DNA of 17,277 nucleotides from a virus (lineage: Duplodnaviria > Heunggongvirae > Uroviricota > Caudoviricetes). Shown one piece after another: positions 8,105 to 17,028 of the stretch. The stretch covers positions 1 through 17,277 of the IMG/VR virus record IMGVR_UViG_2529292908_000014; one strand, written 5' to 3'. Position 1 is the stretch's first letter. Every line of letters starts with the position of its first letter. The notes under the pieces were generated by a model. That model made no database searches, was not told the DNA's origin, and worked only from the letters and a program-made list of their open reading frames with translations. The position numbers and the translations under genes are program-made.

Positions 8105-8286
8105 GAGTTTCTCCTGTAAATCTGAGCCACTGACGGCCCGTAAATAACACCCTGTCAAAGGCACAGAAGCCTTTTGCAGGGCGCTATCCCTTAAGGTGCC
8201 TTGTGGTCTGAGTGGACAGGGTAAACGGTCTGGTGTGGTGGGTACTGCTGAGGGAGTTCAGCACCCCGCGGCGGCGGGGTGATAAA

Positions 8287-8565
8287 TCAGAAGCGGGAAA
8301 GAGAATCCGGCGTAATAAGAGGTTTATTACAAAGCGGAGCAGAGGCGTTCGCCTTTTCCATCGCTGCACGCATCTCGTTTTCGCTGGCGATGATGTCAGC
8401 AATGGCACACTGCAACGCTTCTTCCTGAACAACCATATCCGGTTGTTCGGCCATTCGGTTTAGCTGGCTGGCCAGATTTTTCATATAAGCGAAGCGGCGT
8501 CCGGCAGCATCCCGGGCCTGCTCTGAGTAGGCTGTATACTCGCCAAGTGCCGTATAGTTGGTCAT
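8287..8565 (-). CDS. Hypothetical protein (92 aa) in the position where Mu has the late activator C
   Basis: ATG at 8563-8565 with a strong Shine-Dalgarno sequence (AAAAAGGAGACACTT-ATG); no Mor/C-like motif. Confidence 0.4.
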   Translation of the reverse strand: MTNYTALGEYTAYSEQARDAAGRRFAYMKNLASQLNRMAEQPDMVVQEEALQCAIADIIASENEMRAAMEKANASAPLCNKPLITPDSLSRF

Positions 8566-8591: not shown

Positions 8592-9059
8592 TTAATCAAA
8601 AAGCCCCACCTGGGTGGGGCTTTTCAGCGAAGTCTGTTTTTGTCGTCGGTGTATCAGCTGCCATGCGTACCGGTCTGAAATCCCGTAACGGGGACAAAGC
8701 AGTGCCAGCGCCTGCCGGTGTGAAAATCCGTCTCTGATATGCTGCTGTAAATCAGCCATAAAACGGGCGTTACGCAGAGCACGTAACGCATGATCGCAAC
8801 GGGGAATGTAAAACGGAGCACCGCCAAGAAAGCGGATCAGTTTGTTGATTTCGTCTTCGGTCAGCACGTCATGTAACAGGGCATGGACACCGCCAGTACG
8901 TTCGGCGTGTGCGCCGGTTTTACCGCTTAACGTCACGCCACCAAAAGAACGAATCAACCGGGTCATGGCGGGGAAGCCAATCACGCTAATCAGTTGCTGC
9001 ACGGAATCGGGCAGCAGTGCCTGCGCATCGCGAAGATCTGTTTCACTGAAGGTCTGCAT
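8592..9059 (-). CDS. mor: Mor/C-family transcription activator (middle-operon regulator-like)
   Basis: 155-aa ORF, ATG at 9059 with GGAGA upstream. C-terminal region …LIRFLGGAPFYIPRCDHALRALRNARFMADLQQ…YGISDRYAWQLIHRR matches the Mor/C signature as I recall it (LGG..VYIPR … YG.S…VY.I). Lies immediately after gemA as mor does in Mu; being C instead cannot be excluded. Confidence 0.65.
   Translation of the reverse strand: MQTFSETDLRDAQALLPDSVQQLISVIGFPAMTRLIRSFGGVTLSGKTGAHAERTGGVHALLHDVLTEDEINKLIRFLGGAPFYIPRCDHALRALRNARFMADLQQHIRDGFSHRQALALLCPRYGISDRYAWQLIHRRQKQTSLKSPTQVGLFD
8596..8621 (-). terminator. Hairpin plus short T-tract overlapping the last codons of the mor-like gene (candidate intrinsic terminator, minus strand)
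   Basis: Minus-strand AGCCCCAC-CCAG-GTGGGGCT followed by TTTTGATTAA; 8-bp GC-rich stem, short U-tract. Confidence 0.4.
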
Positions 9060-9121
9060 GATGGCGTCTCCGGTAGTAACTTACTGTTATTATAGCCATA
9101 CATGATCGCCTGTACAGACCA

Positions 9122-9148
9122 CAAAAAAGCCCCTGCAAGGCAGGGGCT
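9122..9148 (-). terminator. Rho-independent terminator-like hairpin between gemA and the mor-like gene (minus strand)
   Basis: Minus-strand AGCCCCTGC-CTT-GCAGGGGCT followed by TTTTTTGT; 9-bp GC-rich stem, 6-T tract; starts 6 nt after the gemA stop. Confidence 0.55.
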
Positions 9149-9154
9149 GATTCT

Positions 9155-9568
9155 TTATTGTTTACGTGCTGCTCTGACTCGTTTTCTGGCGTCTTTTGTC
9201 AGCGCCACCATCACCCCGAAAAGCTGTTCATCCGTCAGCCATTCGATCACATGTTGCTTATACATGTGAGATGCCAGTCCTTCCGCATACACCCAGGAAC
9301 GACCGGCATCAGCCAGTAACGCTTCAATTTTGGATAATACCGATTTTCTGCTCATTGCAACACGAGGGCGGCGACCTTTACCAGCGGGGGCCTTGCGCGG
9401 AAATCCCTGTTCGTGCATGTATTCCCGGATGATGCGCAGTTCATCGAGATTGCAGCGTGTGGTGCTGGTTTTACCTGTCAGGCGGATCAGTGTCTGGCGA
9501 TAAAGAGCATCATCCCACCCCAGATATGCCTGACCGGCTTTAATGGCCCCGATCATCTTTTTCTGCAT
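9155..9568 (-). CDS. gemA: GemA-like regulatory protein (Mu gp16 family)
   Basis: ATG at 9566-9568 preceded by GAGGA; N-terminus MQKKMIGAIKAGQAYLGWDDALYRQTLIRLTGKTSTTRCNLDELRIIREYMHEQGF resembles GemA/DUF1018 proteins as I recall them. The six-frame ORF extends to 9667, but the internal ATG with RBS fits better. Confidence 0.7.
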   Translation of the reverse strand: MQKKMIGAIKAGQAYLGWDDALYRQTLIRLTGKTSTTRCNLDELRIIREYMHEQGFPRKAPAGKGRRPRVAMSRKSVLSKIEALLADAGRSWVYAEGLASHMYKQHVIEWLTDEQLFGVMVALTKDARKRVRAARKQ

Positions 9569-9854
9569 GTTTGTTATCCTCAAAACGCACGGTAAAACGT
9601 GAAACACCAATCCCCAACAGGAACGCGGCGGCACGGTCAAGAGACAGCCACGTCTTGTAATCGCCACGGCGTTCCTGTAGAAAACAGGACACCCCGGCGC
9701 GGCGATTCACAGCGAAGAGGTGATACACACCCCCGAACCGCTGCACGACGAACTCATCCACGCCACCGCTTTCAGCCTGTTGCCTGAAAGCTGCCATTCC
9801 GATTTGTTCAATCTTCATAATGACCAAAACATCATTTTTGGCAGACCAAAACAT
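9540..9854 (-). CDS. Hypothetical early protein (up to 104 aa; start uncertain among 9854, 9818, 9797)
   Basis: Open frame overlapping the gemA start by 29 nt; no convincing Shine-Dalgarno sequence for any start; the longest start lies inside the 28-bp palindrome. Confidence 0.35.
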   Translation of the reverse strand: MFWSAKNDVLVIMKIEQIGMAAFRQQAESGGVDEFVVQRFGGVYHLFAVNRRAGVSCFLQERRGDYKTWLSLDRAAAFLLGIGVSRFTVRFEDNKHAEKDDRGH

Positions 9855-9868
9855 ATGTTTTGGTCTGC
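9841..9868. promoter_or_regulatory. 28-bp perfect palindrome GCAGACCAAAACATATGTTTTGGTCTGC, with a third direct half-site copy at 9822-9832; candidate operator
   Basis: Read directly and checked base by base for self-complementarity; half-site GACCAAAACAT present three times; sits in the 215-bp intergenic gap 9855-10071. Confidence 0.5.
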
Positions 9869-10071
9869 TGTTGGTTATTATTTAATTACTTTGCGTTAGT
9901 GTGATTCTTCCAGCGATTTTGGGCTGCGCTGGGCTTGTTAAGGGAACACATCACAATATCAGCTGTGTTTGTGAACAAACCCATTCTGCGGTTACTGAGT
10001 TTTAGCCATTGCTGGACGCCGCGAGCGTTTCTACAGGTCAAAAGAATTTTTGCTTTACGTTTTTCATCTGA

Positions 10072-17000: not shown

Positions 17001-17028
17001 TCACTGTCGGTGCTTATACACCAATAAA

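What the first reader, a model, noticed from the sequence alone, without database searches (positions are those of the whole stretch)
8596..9148. Two similar terminator-like hairpins bracket the mor-like gene, one overlapping its coding end
Hairpins built on AGCCCC…GGGGCT occur just after gemA (9122-9148, 6-T tract) and over the last nine codons of the mor-like gene (8596-8621, 4-T tract). Together they would make mor a transcriptionally insulated unit, which differs from the Mu model where gemA and mor share the early transcript. The second hairpin is embedded in coding sequence and directly precedes a TAATG-coupled downstream start, suggesting attenuated read-through into the late region.
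Basis: seen in the sequence. Interest (0 to 1): 0.35.

Follow-up and report, generated by a model that had tools for sequence, protein, structure and literature searches.

The report
Terminators bracketing a prophage activator gene
Two strong stop signals for transcription, plus a conserved promoter between the first one and the gene, set the late-gene activator of an E. coli Mu-like prophage apart as its own small transcription unit; this is an ordinary kind of element, except that the second stop signal is written into the codons of the activator's probable sliding-clamp-binding tail.

Summary
Both hairpins are real, lie on the gene (minus) strand and look like canonical intrinsic terminators. 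They are the two best terminator candidates in the 17-kb window. Only 1 of 1060 shuffles reached the weaker one's score.

- **T1 (9123-9148)** follows gemA. Relatives carry at least five different stem sequences at this spot, always hairpin plus T-run. An invariant TGTACA-16-TATAAT promoter follows it in four genera.
- **T2 (8598-8620)** lies in the last codons of mor. It is the best-conserved 30 nt between E. coli and Edwardsiella. It shows one compensatory A-U to G-C change made by two amino-acid changes. A 3-nt insertion in Plesiomonas falls in the loop.
- **T2's 3' arm and U-run** encode Q-V-G-L-F, which matches the C-terminal clamp-binding motif reported for the Mor/C family.

The "TAATG-coupled start" is wrong; the next gene starts at 8565 behind AAGGAG. 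The layout departs from Mu's overlapping gemA-mor genes. It does mirror Mu's own layout, where a hairpin follows mor and another follows C (my recollection: early terminator, Pm, C operon, terminator). About 29% of 56 distant single-Mor prophages have hairpins on both sides. A probable Mor-type late promoter lies downstream (8218-8262). This is a new member of a known kind, of modest interest. No termination was measured.

The parts
9155..9571 (-). gemA-like gene, the last gene of the early operon in this prophage
   Evidence: Pfam PF06252 GemA, E 1.2e-17. RefSeq relatives are annotated 'regulatory protein GemA'.
9123..9148 (-). T1: intrinsic-terminator-like hairpin (stem-loop 9129-9147) plus U6 run (9128-9123), 6 nt after the gemA stop
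   Evidence: Top hit of the terminator scan. Fold -20.1 kcal/mol, z -3.9. Score 46.8, the best in the window. Replaced by other hairpin-plus-T-run sequences at the same spot in relatives.
9089..9116 (-). P_mor: sigma-70-type promoter. -35 TGTACA at 9116-9111, 16-nt spacer containing a conserved GATC (9104-9107), -10 TATAAT at 9094-9089. Predicted start near 9082.
   Evidence: Best promoter match in the window, 10/12. Hexamers, 16-nt spacing and GATCA are invariant in E. coli, Salmonella, Edwardsiella and Plesiomonas, while about half of the spacer positions (9 of 16 in the nine-sequence alignment A5) and the flanks vary.
8592..9059 (-). mor-like gene (155 aa), the only Mor/C-family activator of this prophage
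   Evidence: Pfam PF08765 Mor 28.9 bits (cut-off 24.9). PHROG 836 'late transcriptional activator', 7e-42. It is the only Mor annotated across the 19.5-kb stretch of the prophage in L001 (repressor to head protease).
8598..8624 (-). T2: intrinsic-terminator-like hairpin inside the mor 3' end. Stem-loop 8620-8603, U5 run 8602-8598, upstream A4 at 8624-8621.
   Evidence: Fold -21.2 kcal/mol. Score 33.9, second best in the window. Most conserved 30 nt against Edwardsiella: 90% vs 62.6% overall. Third-codon-position identity 9/10 vs 58/144, p 0.0026. 63/63 cells paired, with one compensatory pair. A 3-nt insertion in Plesiomonas falls in the loop.
8598..8612 (-). Codons CAG GTG GGG CTT TTT = Q-V-G-L-F, a probable C-terminal clamp-binding motif. 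These codons form the 3' arm and U-run of T2.
   Evidence: Q150 and L153 are invariant, and F154 is present in 7 of 9 Mor/C proteins aligned. 42 of 56 relatives have Q..L[FLI] in the last nine residues. The motif is reported for the family in PMC12867686.
8287..8565 (-). orf92 (function unknown, PHROG 7152). Real start is the ATG at 8565 behind AAGGAG, not the TAATG at 8592.
8262..8281 (-). Hairpin 3 (CACCCCG-CCGCCG-CGGGGUG) after orf92, with no U run. Possible 3' end of read-through transcripts.
   Evidence: Fold -17.6 kcal/mol, z -3.2. A different hairpin occupies the same place in L005.
8218..8262 (-). Probable Mor-dependent late promoter. 16-bp dyad GCTGA-ACTCCC-TCAGC (8262-8247), 23 nt, then -10-like TACCCT (8223-8218).
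   Evidence: It is the only perfect copy of the dyad in the window. The same motif, the same 23-nt spacing and an xAxxxT hexamer occur in Mu-like prophages of at least 9 other genera downstream of mor. The geometry equals that of Mu Pm (PMC4287176, PMC4390567).
7712..8104 (-). Holin, the first recognisable late (lysis) gene, which the terminators would shield from early or middle transcription
   Evidence: Pfam PF16931, 5e-25. PHROG 198 holin. RefSeq start as in L001.

Best explanation
The window is part of a Mu-like transposable prophage of E. coli that has a single Mor/C-family activator. T1 and T2 are Rho-independent terminators on the gene strand.

T1 ends the early operon: gemA here, and gemA plus a cargo gene in relatives. 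Straight after T1's T-run comes a conserved sigma-70-type promoter (TGTACA-16-TATAAT) that gives mor its own transcript. T2 is built into the last nine codons of mor. It ends that transcript before the lysis and late genes, which have their own probable Mor-dependent promoter about 340 nt further on. So mor forms a one-gene 'middle' unit, matching the hairpin after mor and the hairpin after C that bracket Mu's C region.

T2 sits inside the reading frame, with the stop codon only 3 nt after the U-run. A ribosome following RNA polymerase closely should mask the hairpin. T2 is therefore probably leaky in a translation-dependent way, and that read-through is the likely source of orf92 expression.

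The 3' arm and U-run of T2 double as the codons for Q-V-G-L-F, the probable beta-clamp-binding tail of the activator.

Shown: sequence features, their statistical rarity, and structure-preserving evolution of the hairpins and promoter. Inferred: actual termination, promoter activity, ribosome gating, clamp binding.
For: (1) Canonical anatomy and rarity.
- Scores 46.8 and 33.9 against a next best of 9.4. Only 1/1060 shuffles reached 33.9.
- Both score above the Mu hairpin that follows mor (24.1).

(2) T1 is conserved as a structure, not as a sequence.
- At least five stem families occupy the same position, each with a T-run and scores of 21-63: GCCCCUGC/GCAGGGGC, CCUCCGC/GCGGAGG, GCCCCGCC/GGCGGGGC, CCCUCGCA/UGCGGGGG, plus loop variants.
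- Different cargo genes are inserted between gemA and T1 in relatives, but never between T1 and the promoter.

(3) Promoter.
- It is the best match in the window.
- Both hexamers and the 16-nt spacing are invariant across four genera, whereas Mor proteins are only 54-66% identical.

(4) T2 is under nucleotide-level constraint.
- It is the most conserved 30-nt stretch against Edwardsiella.
- Synonymous and third positions are conserved (9/10 vs 58/144, p 0.0026).
- All 63 cells pair, against 41-57% when the partner is slid.
- The A-U to G-C compensatory change costs two amino-acid changes (T to A, V to A).
- Other changes fall in the loop, including a nonsynonymous Q to L and a 3-nt insertion.

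(5) Generality. Terminator-like hairpins occur upstream of mor in 25/56 and around its stop in 23/56 distant loci, against 19/499 control windows.

(6) A late promoter of Mor type lies downstream of T2, so insulation has something to protect.

(7) Ribosome repression of terminators at gene ends has been measured in E. coli (PMC4824070).

(8) The clamp-binding motif is published for the Mor/C family (PMC12867686) and is invariant in my alignment.
Against: - No transcript 3' or 5' ends were available, so termination and promoter activity are predictions.
- Covariation in T2 rests on one evolutionary event (Edwardsiella and Plesiomonas share it).
- Part of T2's conservation is explained by the conserved protein motif.
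- If T1 is efficient and P_mor is a plain sigma-70 promoter, something must keep mor quiet in the lysogen. I found no operator or activator site there.
- In some relatives (Morganella, Trabulsiella L047, Citrobacter L048) the upstream hairpin lies 19-22 nt before the mor start, with no room for a promoter. This fits an attenuator better than an insulator.
- T1 begins only 6 nt after the gemA stop, so it too may be partly masked by ribosomes.
- orf92 sits between T2 and the late promoter without a promoter of its own. T2 therefore cannot be a tight stop if orf92 is expressed.
Confidence: 0.7

Rival explanations
1. Attenuator model. mor is transcribed mainly by read-through from the early promoter. 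T1 and T2 are leaky, translation-gated attenuators that set dose and timing (delaying Mor, then limiting flow into the lysis genes). They are not insulators, and P_mor is minor or inactive.
For: - T1 starts 6 nt after the gemA stop and T2 lies inside mor. Terminators in these positions are strongly repressed by ribosomes in E. coli (PMC4824070).
- Morganella, Trabulsiella L047 and Citrobacter L048 have the hairpin 19-22 nt before mor with no promoter space.
- orf92 needs read-through of T2.
Against: - The TGTACA-16-TATAAT hexamers and their spacing are invariant across four genera while surrounding bases vary. That is hard to explain for a non-functional promoter.
- The distance from the upstream stop codon to T1 varies from 5 to 29 nt in relatives, so close stop-hairpin spacing is not conserved.
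Confidence: 0.2
2. T2 is not a functional element. The hairpin is a by-product of the G-rich and T-rich codons of the conserved Q-x-G-L-F tail plus chance complementarity upstream.
For: - Codons for G-L-F naturally give GGN-CTT-TTT, which is the 3' foot of a terminator.
- Weak hairpins of the same kind appear in Morganella and Intestinirhabdus tails.
- The motif is conserved for protein reasons.
Against: - Third-position identity is 9/10 in the tail against 58/144 in the gene body.
- The 5' arm encodes non-conserved linker residues, yet it is invariant apart from one change compensated in the 3' arm at the cost of two amino-acid changes.
- A hairpin plus U-run scoring as high as T2 arose in only 1 of 1060 shuffles of the window.
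Confidence: 0.07
3. The palindromes act at the DNA level as binding sites for a dimeric protein (Mor autoregulation, repressor, or another regulator), not as RNA hairpins.
For: - Mor/C proteins bind dyad-symmetric sites (PMC4287176).
- Both elements are perfect inverted repeats sharing GCCCC/GGGGC.
Against: - T1 is replaced by unrelated palindromes in close relatives that have nearly identical Mor proteins.
- T2's half-site spacing changes from 4 to 7 nt in Plesiomonas.
- Both always keep a T-run on the gene strand.
- The Mor-type dyad found in this clade is different (GCTGA-N6-TCAGC) and sits elsewhere.
- Neither hairpin lies at -43.5 from a -10 element.
Confidence: 0.04
4. The hairpins serve mainly as 3' stabilisers or processing barriers for mRNA, protecting gemA and mor messages from 3' exonucleases. 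Transcription ends elsewhere.
For: - Strong 3' hairpins do stabilise upstream mRNA (general knowledge; PMC11696848 was listed but not read).
- Hairpin 3, after orf92, has no U-run and may be of this kind.
Against: The U-runs are conserved in every variant of T1 and T2. A mere stabiliser does not need them. This role is in any case compatible with termination rather than an alternative to it.
Confidence: 0.05

Closest known systems
Phage Mu: the hairpin after mor ('t9.2'), middle promoter Pm, the C operon, and the hairpin after C
   Same: - A terminator-like hairpin follows the last early gene (Mu 9179-9193, score 24.1).
- A promoter follows it and drives the gene for the late activator.
- A second hairpin follows that activator gene, just upstream of the lysis promoter.
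- The late promoter found here has the Pm/late-promoter geometry: a 16-bp dyad at -51..-36 and a -10 without a -35.
   Different: - Mu has two activators in a cascade (Mor, then C), and gemA overlaps mor. This prophage has one activator, separated from gemA.
- Pm lacks a -35 and needs Mor (PMC4287176). P_mor here has TGTACA at -35 and a perfect TATAAT, with no Mor-type dyad.
- Mu's terminators are intergenic, whereas T2 here lies inside the coding sequence.
- The name 't9.2' and its experimental status come from my memory of the Howe laboratory's work. I could not open those papers.
Single-activator Mu-like phages (SuMu, Mannheimia vB_MhM_3927AP2, Pseudomonas D3112/JBD24 group, VW-6B)
   Same: - One Mor-family 'late transcriptional activator' is followed directly by lysis genes. 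PMC4553209 notes the lack of a C gene.
- Pasteurellaceae members have a terminator-like hairpin 76-110 nt upstream of mor and another after it.
   Different: - Protein identity is only 31-42%.
- In the Pseudomonas and Klebsiella phages gemA and mor overlap, with no hairpin between them.
- None of these has the hairpin inside the coding tail, and none has the TGTACA-16-TATAAT promoter.
Intrinsic terminators at or inside gene ends that are repressed by the translating ribosome (E. coli tR2 position study, PMC4824070)
   Same: A hairpin plus U-run placed in the last part of a reading frame (T2), or a few bases after a stop codon (T1, 6 nt).
   Different: That study used an engineered reporter. 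Nothing has been measured here.
Clamp-binding motifs of the Mor/MuC family (PMC12867686)
   Same: A C-terminal Q-x-x-L-F (here QVGLF; MuC QPDLF) is invariant in my alignment.
   Different: - Binding was not tested for this protein.
- The overlap of the motif's codons with a terminator was not mentioned in the passages of that paper that I read.

Membership tests
Rho-independent (intrinsic) terminator | G+C-rich stem of about 5-14 bp with a short loop (3-8 nt) | tested here: met
   T1 has 8 bp (7 G-C) and a 3-nt loop. T2 has 7 bp (6 G-C) and a 4-nt loop. Hairpin energies are -15.5 and -14.2 kcal/mol.
Rho-independent (intrinsic) terminator | Run of U immediately 3' of the stem, on the transcribed strand | tested here: met
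   T1 has U6 then GUGG. T2 has U5 then GAUUAAU. Both are on the minus strand, which carries all the genes. The U-run is kept in every variant in relatives.
Rho-independent (intrinsic) terminator | Structure, rather than sequence, maintained in evolution | tested here: met
   T1 shows at least five different stems at one position. T2 shows 63/63 cells paired, one compensatory pair, and indels and substitutions confined to the loop.
Rho-independent (intrinsic) terminator | RNA 3' ends produced at the U-run in vivo or in vitro | not testable with these tools
   No transcript data were available. Rfam has no model that applies; the scan gave 0 hits.
[quoted passage not shown] | Sequence match to the family profile | tested here: met
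   PF08765 28.9 bits, above the cut-off of 24.9. PHROG 836, 7e-42. Aligns with Mu Mor (22%) and Mu C (31%).
[quoted passage not shown] | Terminal clamp-binding motif (N-terminal Qx[DE][LM]F and/or C-terminal QPDLF-like), as reported in PMC12867686 | tested here: inconclusive
   The C-terminal QVGLF fits Q-x-x-L-F, and Q and L are invariant in 9 sequences. The N terminus (MQTFSETDL) does not clearly fit. Binding is untested.
Mu-type middle operon (Pm-C) | Preceded by the terminator of the early operon and followed by a terminator before the lysis promoter | tested here: met
   T1 and T2 here. The equivalent hairpins are seen in Mu.
Mu-type middle operon (Pm-C) | Promoter without a -35 element, dependent on an early Mor protein bound to a dyad at -51..-36 | tested here: not met
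   P_mor has TGTACA (4/6) at -35 with 16-nt spacing and a perfect TATAAT. Positions -51..-36 are the foot of T1 plus its T-run, not a 5-6-5 dyad. No second Mor/C gene is annotated across the 19.5 kb of the prophage seen in L001.
Mor/C-dependent late promoter (for the element at 8218-8262) | 16-bp dyad (5-bp arms, G/C-rich 6-bp spacer) centred near -43.5, a -10 hexamer, and no -35 | tested here: met
   GCTGA-ACTCCC-TCAGC, then 23 nt, then TACCCT. The same spacing and an xAxxxT hexamer are seen in at least 9 other genera. The geometry comes from PMC4287176 and PMC4390567. Mor binding is untested.

The most novel reading that the evidence does not exclude
T2 is a dual-coded, translation-gated terminator. 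The same 15 nt would encode the activator's beta-clamp-binding tail (Q-V-G-L-F) and also form the 3' arm and U-run of the terminator that shields the lysis genes. The ribosome finishing mor would then decide whether polymerase runs on into orf92 and beyond.

Two further features add to this reading: the autonomous P_mor promoter, whose spacer carries an invariant GATC (a possible link to the Dam-methylation or replication state), and clamp dependence of the activator. Together they would replace Mu's two-step Mor-to-C cascade with a single replication-coupled step in a clade of enterobacterial transposable prophages.
Probability: 0.12. Interest if true: 0.6.

Novelty: new member of a known kind. 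Interest (0 to 1): 0.35.

Why it matters
It gives a concrete, testable regulatory map for a group of E. coli, Salmonella, Edwardsiella and Plesiomonas Mu-like prophages. These are present in about 1% of complete E. coli genomes, including EPEC E2348/69, and they manage with one Mor/C activator instead of Mu's two.

The map runs: early terminator, autonomous promoter, activator, terminator, then a Mor-type late promoter.

It also provides a tidy natural example of a terminator written into functional codons (a probable clamp-binding motif), where translation should gate termination. That would be useful for studying transcription-translation coupling.

None of this overturns current understanding. 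Terminators between phage transcription units are routine.

Tried and rejected
- **Near-identical DNA in sequenced phages:** none found. The element is known only as a prophage.
- **First genome-contig scan with the single protein:** nothing found. An alignment that included Mu Mor and C was too divergent to seed a scan. A five-sequence alignment worked.
- **Rfam:** no family matched anywhere in the window.
- **MuC consensus TTAT-N5-6-ATAA:** one match, at 17014-17027, no better than chance (43/200 shuffles) and not near the late genes. This clade evidently uses a different dyad.
- **Hairpin 3 (CCCCG-CCGCCG-CGGGG) as the Mor site:** rejected. Placing it at -43.5 puts CACCAC at -10, and it is not conserved in L005.
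- **Shared operator between the repressor/ner region of L001 and P_mor:** none seen.
- **Formal pair counting for T1:** not attempted, because MAFFT does not put the unrelated stems in register. I folded each variant instead.
- **Howe-laboratory papers on the Mu early terminator and C operon transcript:** not held.
- **Literature on this prophage in E2348/69:** the search found nothing.
- **The idea that the resemblance between the two hairpins is meaningful:** rejected. T1 changes freely in relatives, and GCCCC/GGGGC stems also end mor in unrelated Pseudomonas and Bergeriella prophages.
Full report
**Context**

All long ORFs in the window run on the minus strand. From right to left they encode a Mu-type transposase and its AAA+ partner, many small early genes, and GemA (PF06252, 1.2e-17). 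Next comes a 155-aa Mor-family protein (PF08765, 28.9 bits; PHROG 836 'late transcriptional activator', 7e-42), then a 92-aa protein of unknown function. After that come holins, an endolysin, DUF1804, a DNA methylase, terminase, portal and head genes.

The region has no close DNA match among sequenced phages. It is 95-99% identical to prophages in 58 of 5426 complete E. coli genomes, including EPEC E2348/69. At the protein level the nearest phage Mor proteins are at most 42% identical. The 19.5-kb stretch of the related prophage seen in L001 (repressor to head protease) carries one Mor/C-family gene. Mu has two, Mor and C.

**The observation**

Read on the gene strand, the gemA stop is followed after 6 nt by GCCCCUGC-CUU-GCAGGGGC and six U (T1, 9148-9123). 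The last nine codons of mor contain GCCCCAC-CCAG-GUGGGGC and five U (T2, 8620-8598), then GAUUAA, whose UAA is the stop.

- Both fold as predicted: -20.1 and -21.2 kcal/mol, z -3.9 and -2.9.
- I wrote a terminator score combining hairpin energy per nucleotide with a weighted U-run score, after d'Aubenton-Carafa. The formula is from memory, so the absolute numbers are approximate.
- T1 scores 46.8 and T2 scores 33.9. The next best site on either strand of the whole window scores 9.4.
- Among 1060 dinucleotide-preserving shuffles of the window, one reached 33.9 and none reached 46.8 in the 1000-shuffle run.
- The hairpin that follows mor in phage Mu scores 24.1 on the same scale.

**T1 is conserved as a structure at a fixed place**

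In 21 close relatives (three RefSeq E. coli prophages; 18 IMG/VR contigs) the sequence from CTGTACAG to the mor start is almost invariant. The hairpin just upstream is not. Besides loop variants (CUU, CGU, CAU, AUAC) and a G-U variant, six contigs carry an unrelated stem, CCUCCGC/GCGGAGG or CCUUCGC/GCGGAGG.

More distant relatives add further stems:
- Salmonella (Mor 66% identical) has GCCCCGCC/GGCGGGGC.
- Edwardsiella and Plesiomonas (54-55%) have CCCUCGCA/UGCGGGGG.

Every variant is followed by a T-run and scores 21-63.

In several relatives a cargo gene encoding a small protein with a signal peptide is inserted between gemA and T1. At least four different cargo genes are seen. None is ever inserted between T1 and the promoter. 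This is what one expects of a terminator that closes the early operon. It is not what one expects of a sequence-specific protein site.

**A promoter follows T1**

The best sigma-70-type match in the whole window (10 of 12) is TGTACA-16 nt-TATAAT at 9116-9089, on the gene strand. It lies between T1 and mor, about 30 nt before the start codon.

Both hexamers and the 16-nt spacing are identical in all E. coli relatives and in Salmonella, Edwardsiella and Plesiomonas. About half of the spacer positions (9 of 16 in alignment A5) and the flanking bases vary. A GATCA inside the spacer (GATC at 9104-9107) is also invariant.

What controls it is unknown. I found no Mor-type dyad and no obvious operator there.

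**T2 is under constraint at the nucleotide level**

In an 850-nt alignment with Edwardsiella hoshinae (62.6% identity overall), the most conserved 30-nt stretch is 8622-8593, which is exactly T2, at 90%.

- Third codon positions are identical in 9 of the last 10 codons, against 58 of 144 in the rest of the gene (Fisher p 0.0026).
- Identical amino acids use identical codons in 6 of 7 cases in the tail, against 32 of 74 elsewhere (p 0.038).
- Across nine sequences from four genera, all 63 stem cells pair. Only 41-57% pair when the 3' partner is slid by 1-3 columns.
- The only stem change is A-U to G-C, made by ACC to GCC and GUG to GCG. These are two amino-acid replacements (T to A and V to A) that restore pairing.
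- The other differences are in the loop. They include a nonsynonymous CAG to CUG in one E. coli relative and a whole-codon insertion in Plesiomonas that widens the loop from 4 to 7 nt.

The covariation amounts to one evolutionary event, so it is supporting rather than decisive. Together with the synonymous-site conservation, it argues against the hairpin being a mere by-product of the protein sequence. The loop insertion argues against a dimeric protein binding the palindrome.

**T2 is written into a probable functional motif**

A 2026 paper reports that MuC binds the beta sliding clamp through two motifs. It also reports that Mor/C-family proteins carry a C-terminal motif of consensus QPDLF (PMC12867686).

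In my alignment of nine family members, Q150 and L153 of this protein are invariant, and F154 is present in seven. Of 56 distant relatives, 42 have Q..L[FLI] in the last nine residues.

Here the motif is Q-V-G-L-F, encoded by CAG GUG GGG CUU UUU. These codons are the 3' arm of T2 and its U-run. The 5' arm encodes the unconserved linker S-P-T. Codons for G-L-F lend themselves to the foot of a terminator, and this clade appears to have completed the hairpin by shaping the linker. Clamp binding by this protein is an inference.

**What lies downstream, and the TAATG claim**

The ORF that begins at the TAATG overlap (8592) is very probably not translated from there.
- A strong AAGGAG lies 7 nt before the ATG at 8565, and RefSeq starts the gene there in relatives.
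- In L014 and L017 the overlap reads TAACA.
- The Edwardsiella and Salmonella orthologues start at the equivalent of 8565 (MQNYT..., MADFT...).

This 92-aa gene (PHROG 7152, function unknown) has no promoter of its own in the 37 nt after T2. If it is expressed, that happens through read-through of T2.

It is followed by a third hairpin without a U-run (8281-8262). Immediately after that comes a perfect 16-bp dyad, GCTGA-ACTCCC-TCAGC (8262-8247), the only perfect copy in the window.

The same motif recurs downstream of mor in Mu-like prophages of Xenorhabdus, Photorhabdus, Morganella, Intestinirhabdus, Buttiauxella, Trabulsiella, Serratia, Kosakonia and others.
- In nearly every case it is followed, after exactly 23 nt, by a hexamer with A at position 2 and T at position 6: TACCCT, TACACT, TATACT, CACAAT, AATACT, GATACT, CAGAAT. 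In one locus the spacing is off by one.
- This is the geometry described for Mu Pm: a 16-bp element with 5-bp arms and a G/C-rich 6-bp spacer at -51 to -36, a -10 hexamer, and no -35 (PMC4287176, PMC4390567).

I therefore take 8218-8262 to be the Mor-dependent promoter of the lysis and late genes. That gives T2 (and hairpin 3) something to shield. In Plesiomonas, T2 is followed directly by the holin region with no intervening gene.

**How it most likely works**

- Early transcription from the left end stops at T1.
- mor is transcribed from its own promoter, and most of these transcripts stop at T2.
- Mor then activates the late promoter about 340 nt downstream.

Both terminators lie where E. 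coli ribosomes are known to interfere. A terminator placed a few bases after a gene, or in the last part of a coding region, is strongly repressed by the translating ribosome (PMC4824070). T1 starts 6 nt after the gemA stop. T2 lies inside mor, with the stop codon 3 nt after its U-run.

So both are probably leaky when transcription and translation are tightly coupled. That would let some early transcription reach mor and some mor transcription reach orf92.

The main unexplained point is what keeps P_mor quiet in the lysogen. Possibilities I could not test are an unidentified repressor or activator, the invariant GATC, or tolerance of a low Mor level because activation needs a clamp loaded on replicating phage DNA.

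**Comparison with what is known**

In Mu, gemA and mor overlap by 4 nt, as they do in VW-6B, JBD24 and a Klebsiella phage.

But Mu itself has a terminator-like hairpin right after mor (9179-9193), followed by the region where Pm lies. It has another hairpin right after C, just before the lysis promoter region. The present arrangement is therefore Mu's middle unit reduced to a single activator gene and given a self-sufficient-looking promoter.

It fails one defining feature of the Mu middle operon, a Mor-dependent promoter lacking a -35. I therefore call it 'works like' rather than 'is a member'.

The bracket is also widespread. Among 56 Mor loci from different species (28-56% identity):
- 25 have a terminator-like hairpin within 200 nt upstream of mor.
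- 23 have one around the stop codon.
- 16 have both.
- Only 19 of 499 control windows from the same loci have one.

Nearly all Pasteurellaceae Mu-like prophages show the bracket. The literature already notes that these phages lack C and have lys right after mor (PMC4553209).

**Verdict**

These are two good intrinsic terminators plus a conserved promoter that together define a one-gene middle unit in a single-activator Mu-like prophage. This is a new member of a known kind.

The features of some interest are the terminator embedded in the codons of a probable clamp-binding motif, with the ribosome gating that this implies, and the conserved Mor-type late promoter motif that emerged along the way. 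Nothing was measured; everything about function is prediction supported by comparative sequence evidence.

Noticed in passing
window 8218-8262 (minus strand); also L028, L029, L032, L033, L035, L036, L040, L044, L047, L078: A conserved candidate Mor-dependent late promoter. The 16-bp dyad [AG]CTGA-ACNNNN-YCANN is followed after exactly 23 nt by an xAxxxT hexamer, matching the published geometry of Mu Pm. It is found 55 nt or 350-550 nt after mor in at least 9 other genera.
   Followed up: partly
L029 1411-1500, L032 1401-1491, L035 1407-1494: In Xenorhabdus, Photorhabdus and Morganella prophages a second copy of that dyad-plus-hexamer sits about 90 nt upstream of mor itself. It is followed by a hairpin plus U-run that ends 19-20 nt before the mor start. 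This looks like a self-activated mor with a leader attenuator.
   Followed up: no
window 9104-9107: A GATC (within GATCA) in the spacer of the mor promoter is invariant in E. coli, Salmonella, Edwardsiella and Plesiomonas, while most other spacer bases vary. A role for Dam methylation or a regulator site is possible.
   Followed up: no
L002 2076-2600, L003 2028-2504, L005 1563-1901, L014 1427-1906: Relatives carry at least four different small genes with signal peptides inserted between gemA and T1, often overlapping the gemA stop. The site looks like a cargo (moron-like) slot at the end of the early operon. The window has none.
   Followed up: partly
window 8262-8281 and 8105-8225: A strong hairpin without a U-run lies right after orf92. 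The roughly 110-nt leader before the holin gene is unusually structured. The 201-nt region folds at -75.1 kcal/mol against -55.4 for shuffles, z -4.65. No Rfam family matches.
   Followed up: no
window 9839-9870 (and the 217-nt gap 9855-10071): A 14-bp perfect-stem palindrome (CAGCAGACCAAAACAUAUGUUUUGGUCUGCCA on the gene strand) overlaps the start codon of the gene at 9540-9854. A promoter-like site lies at 9905-9877 on the same strand. Together they may form an internal regulatory point in the early region, upstream of gemA.
   Followed up: no
L025 1660-1701, L026 1670-1720 and most Pasteurellaceae loci (L050-L084): After mor, a long A/U-rich hairpin plus U6-8 abuts the ATG of the first lysis gene, with the GAGG of the ribosome-binding site inside the 3' arm. 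Any late transcript must pass through it, so it may gate translation or act as an attenuator.
   Followed up: no
window 17014-17027: This is the single match to the published MuC site consensus TTAT-N6-ATAA (TTATACACCAATAA). It lies between the transposase gene and the ner-like gene. It is no better than chance: 43/200 shuffles gave at least one match.
   Followed up: no
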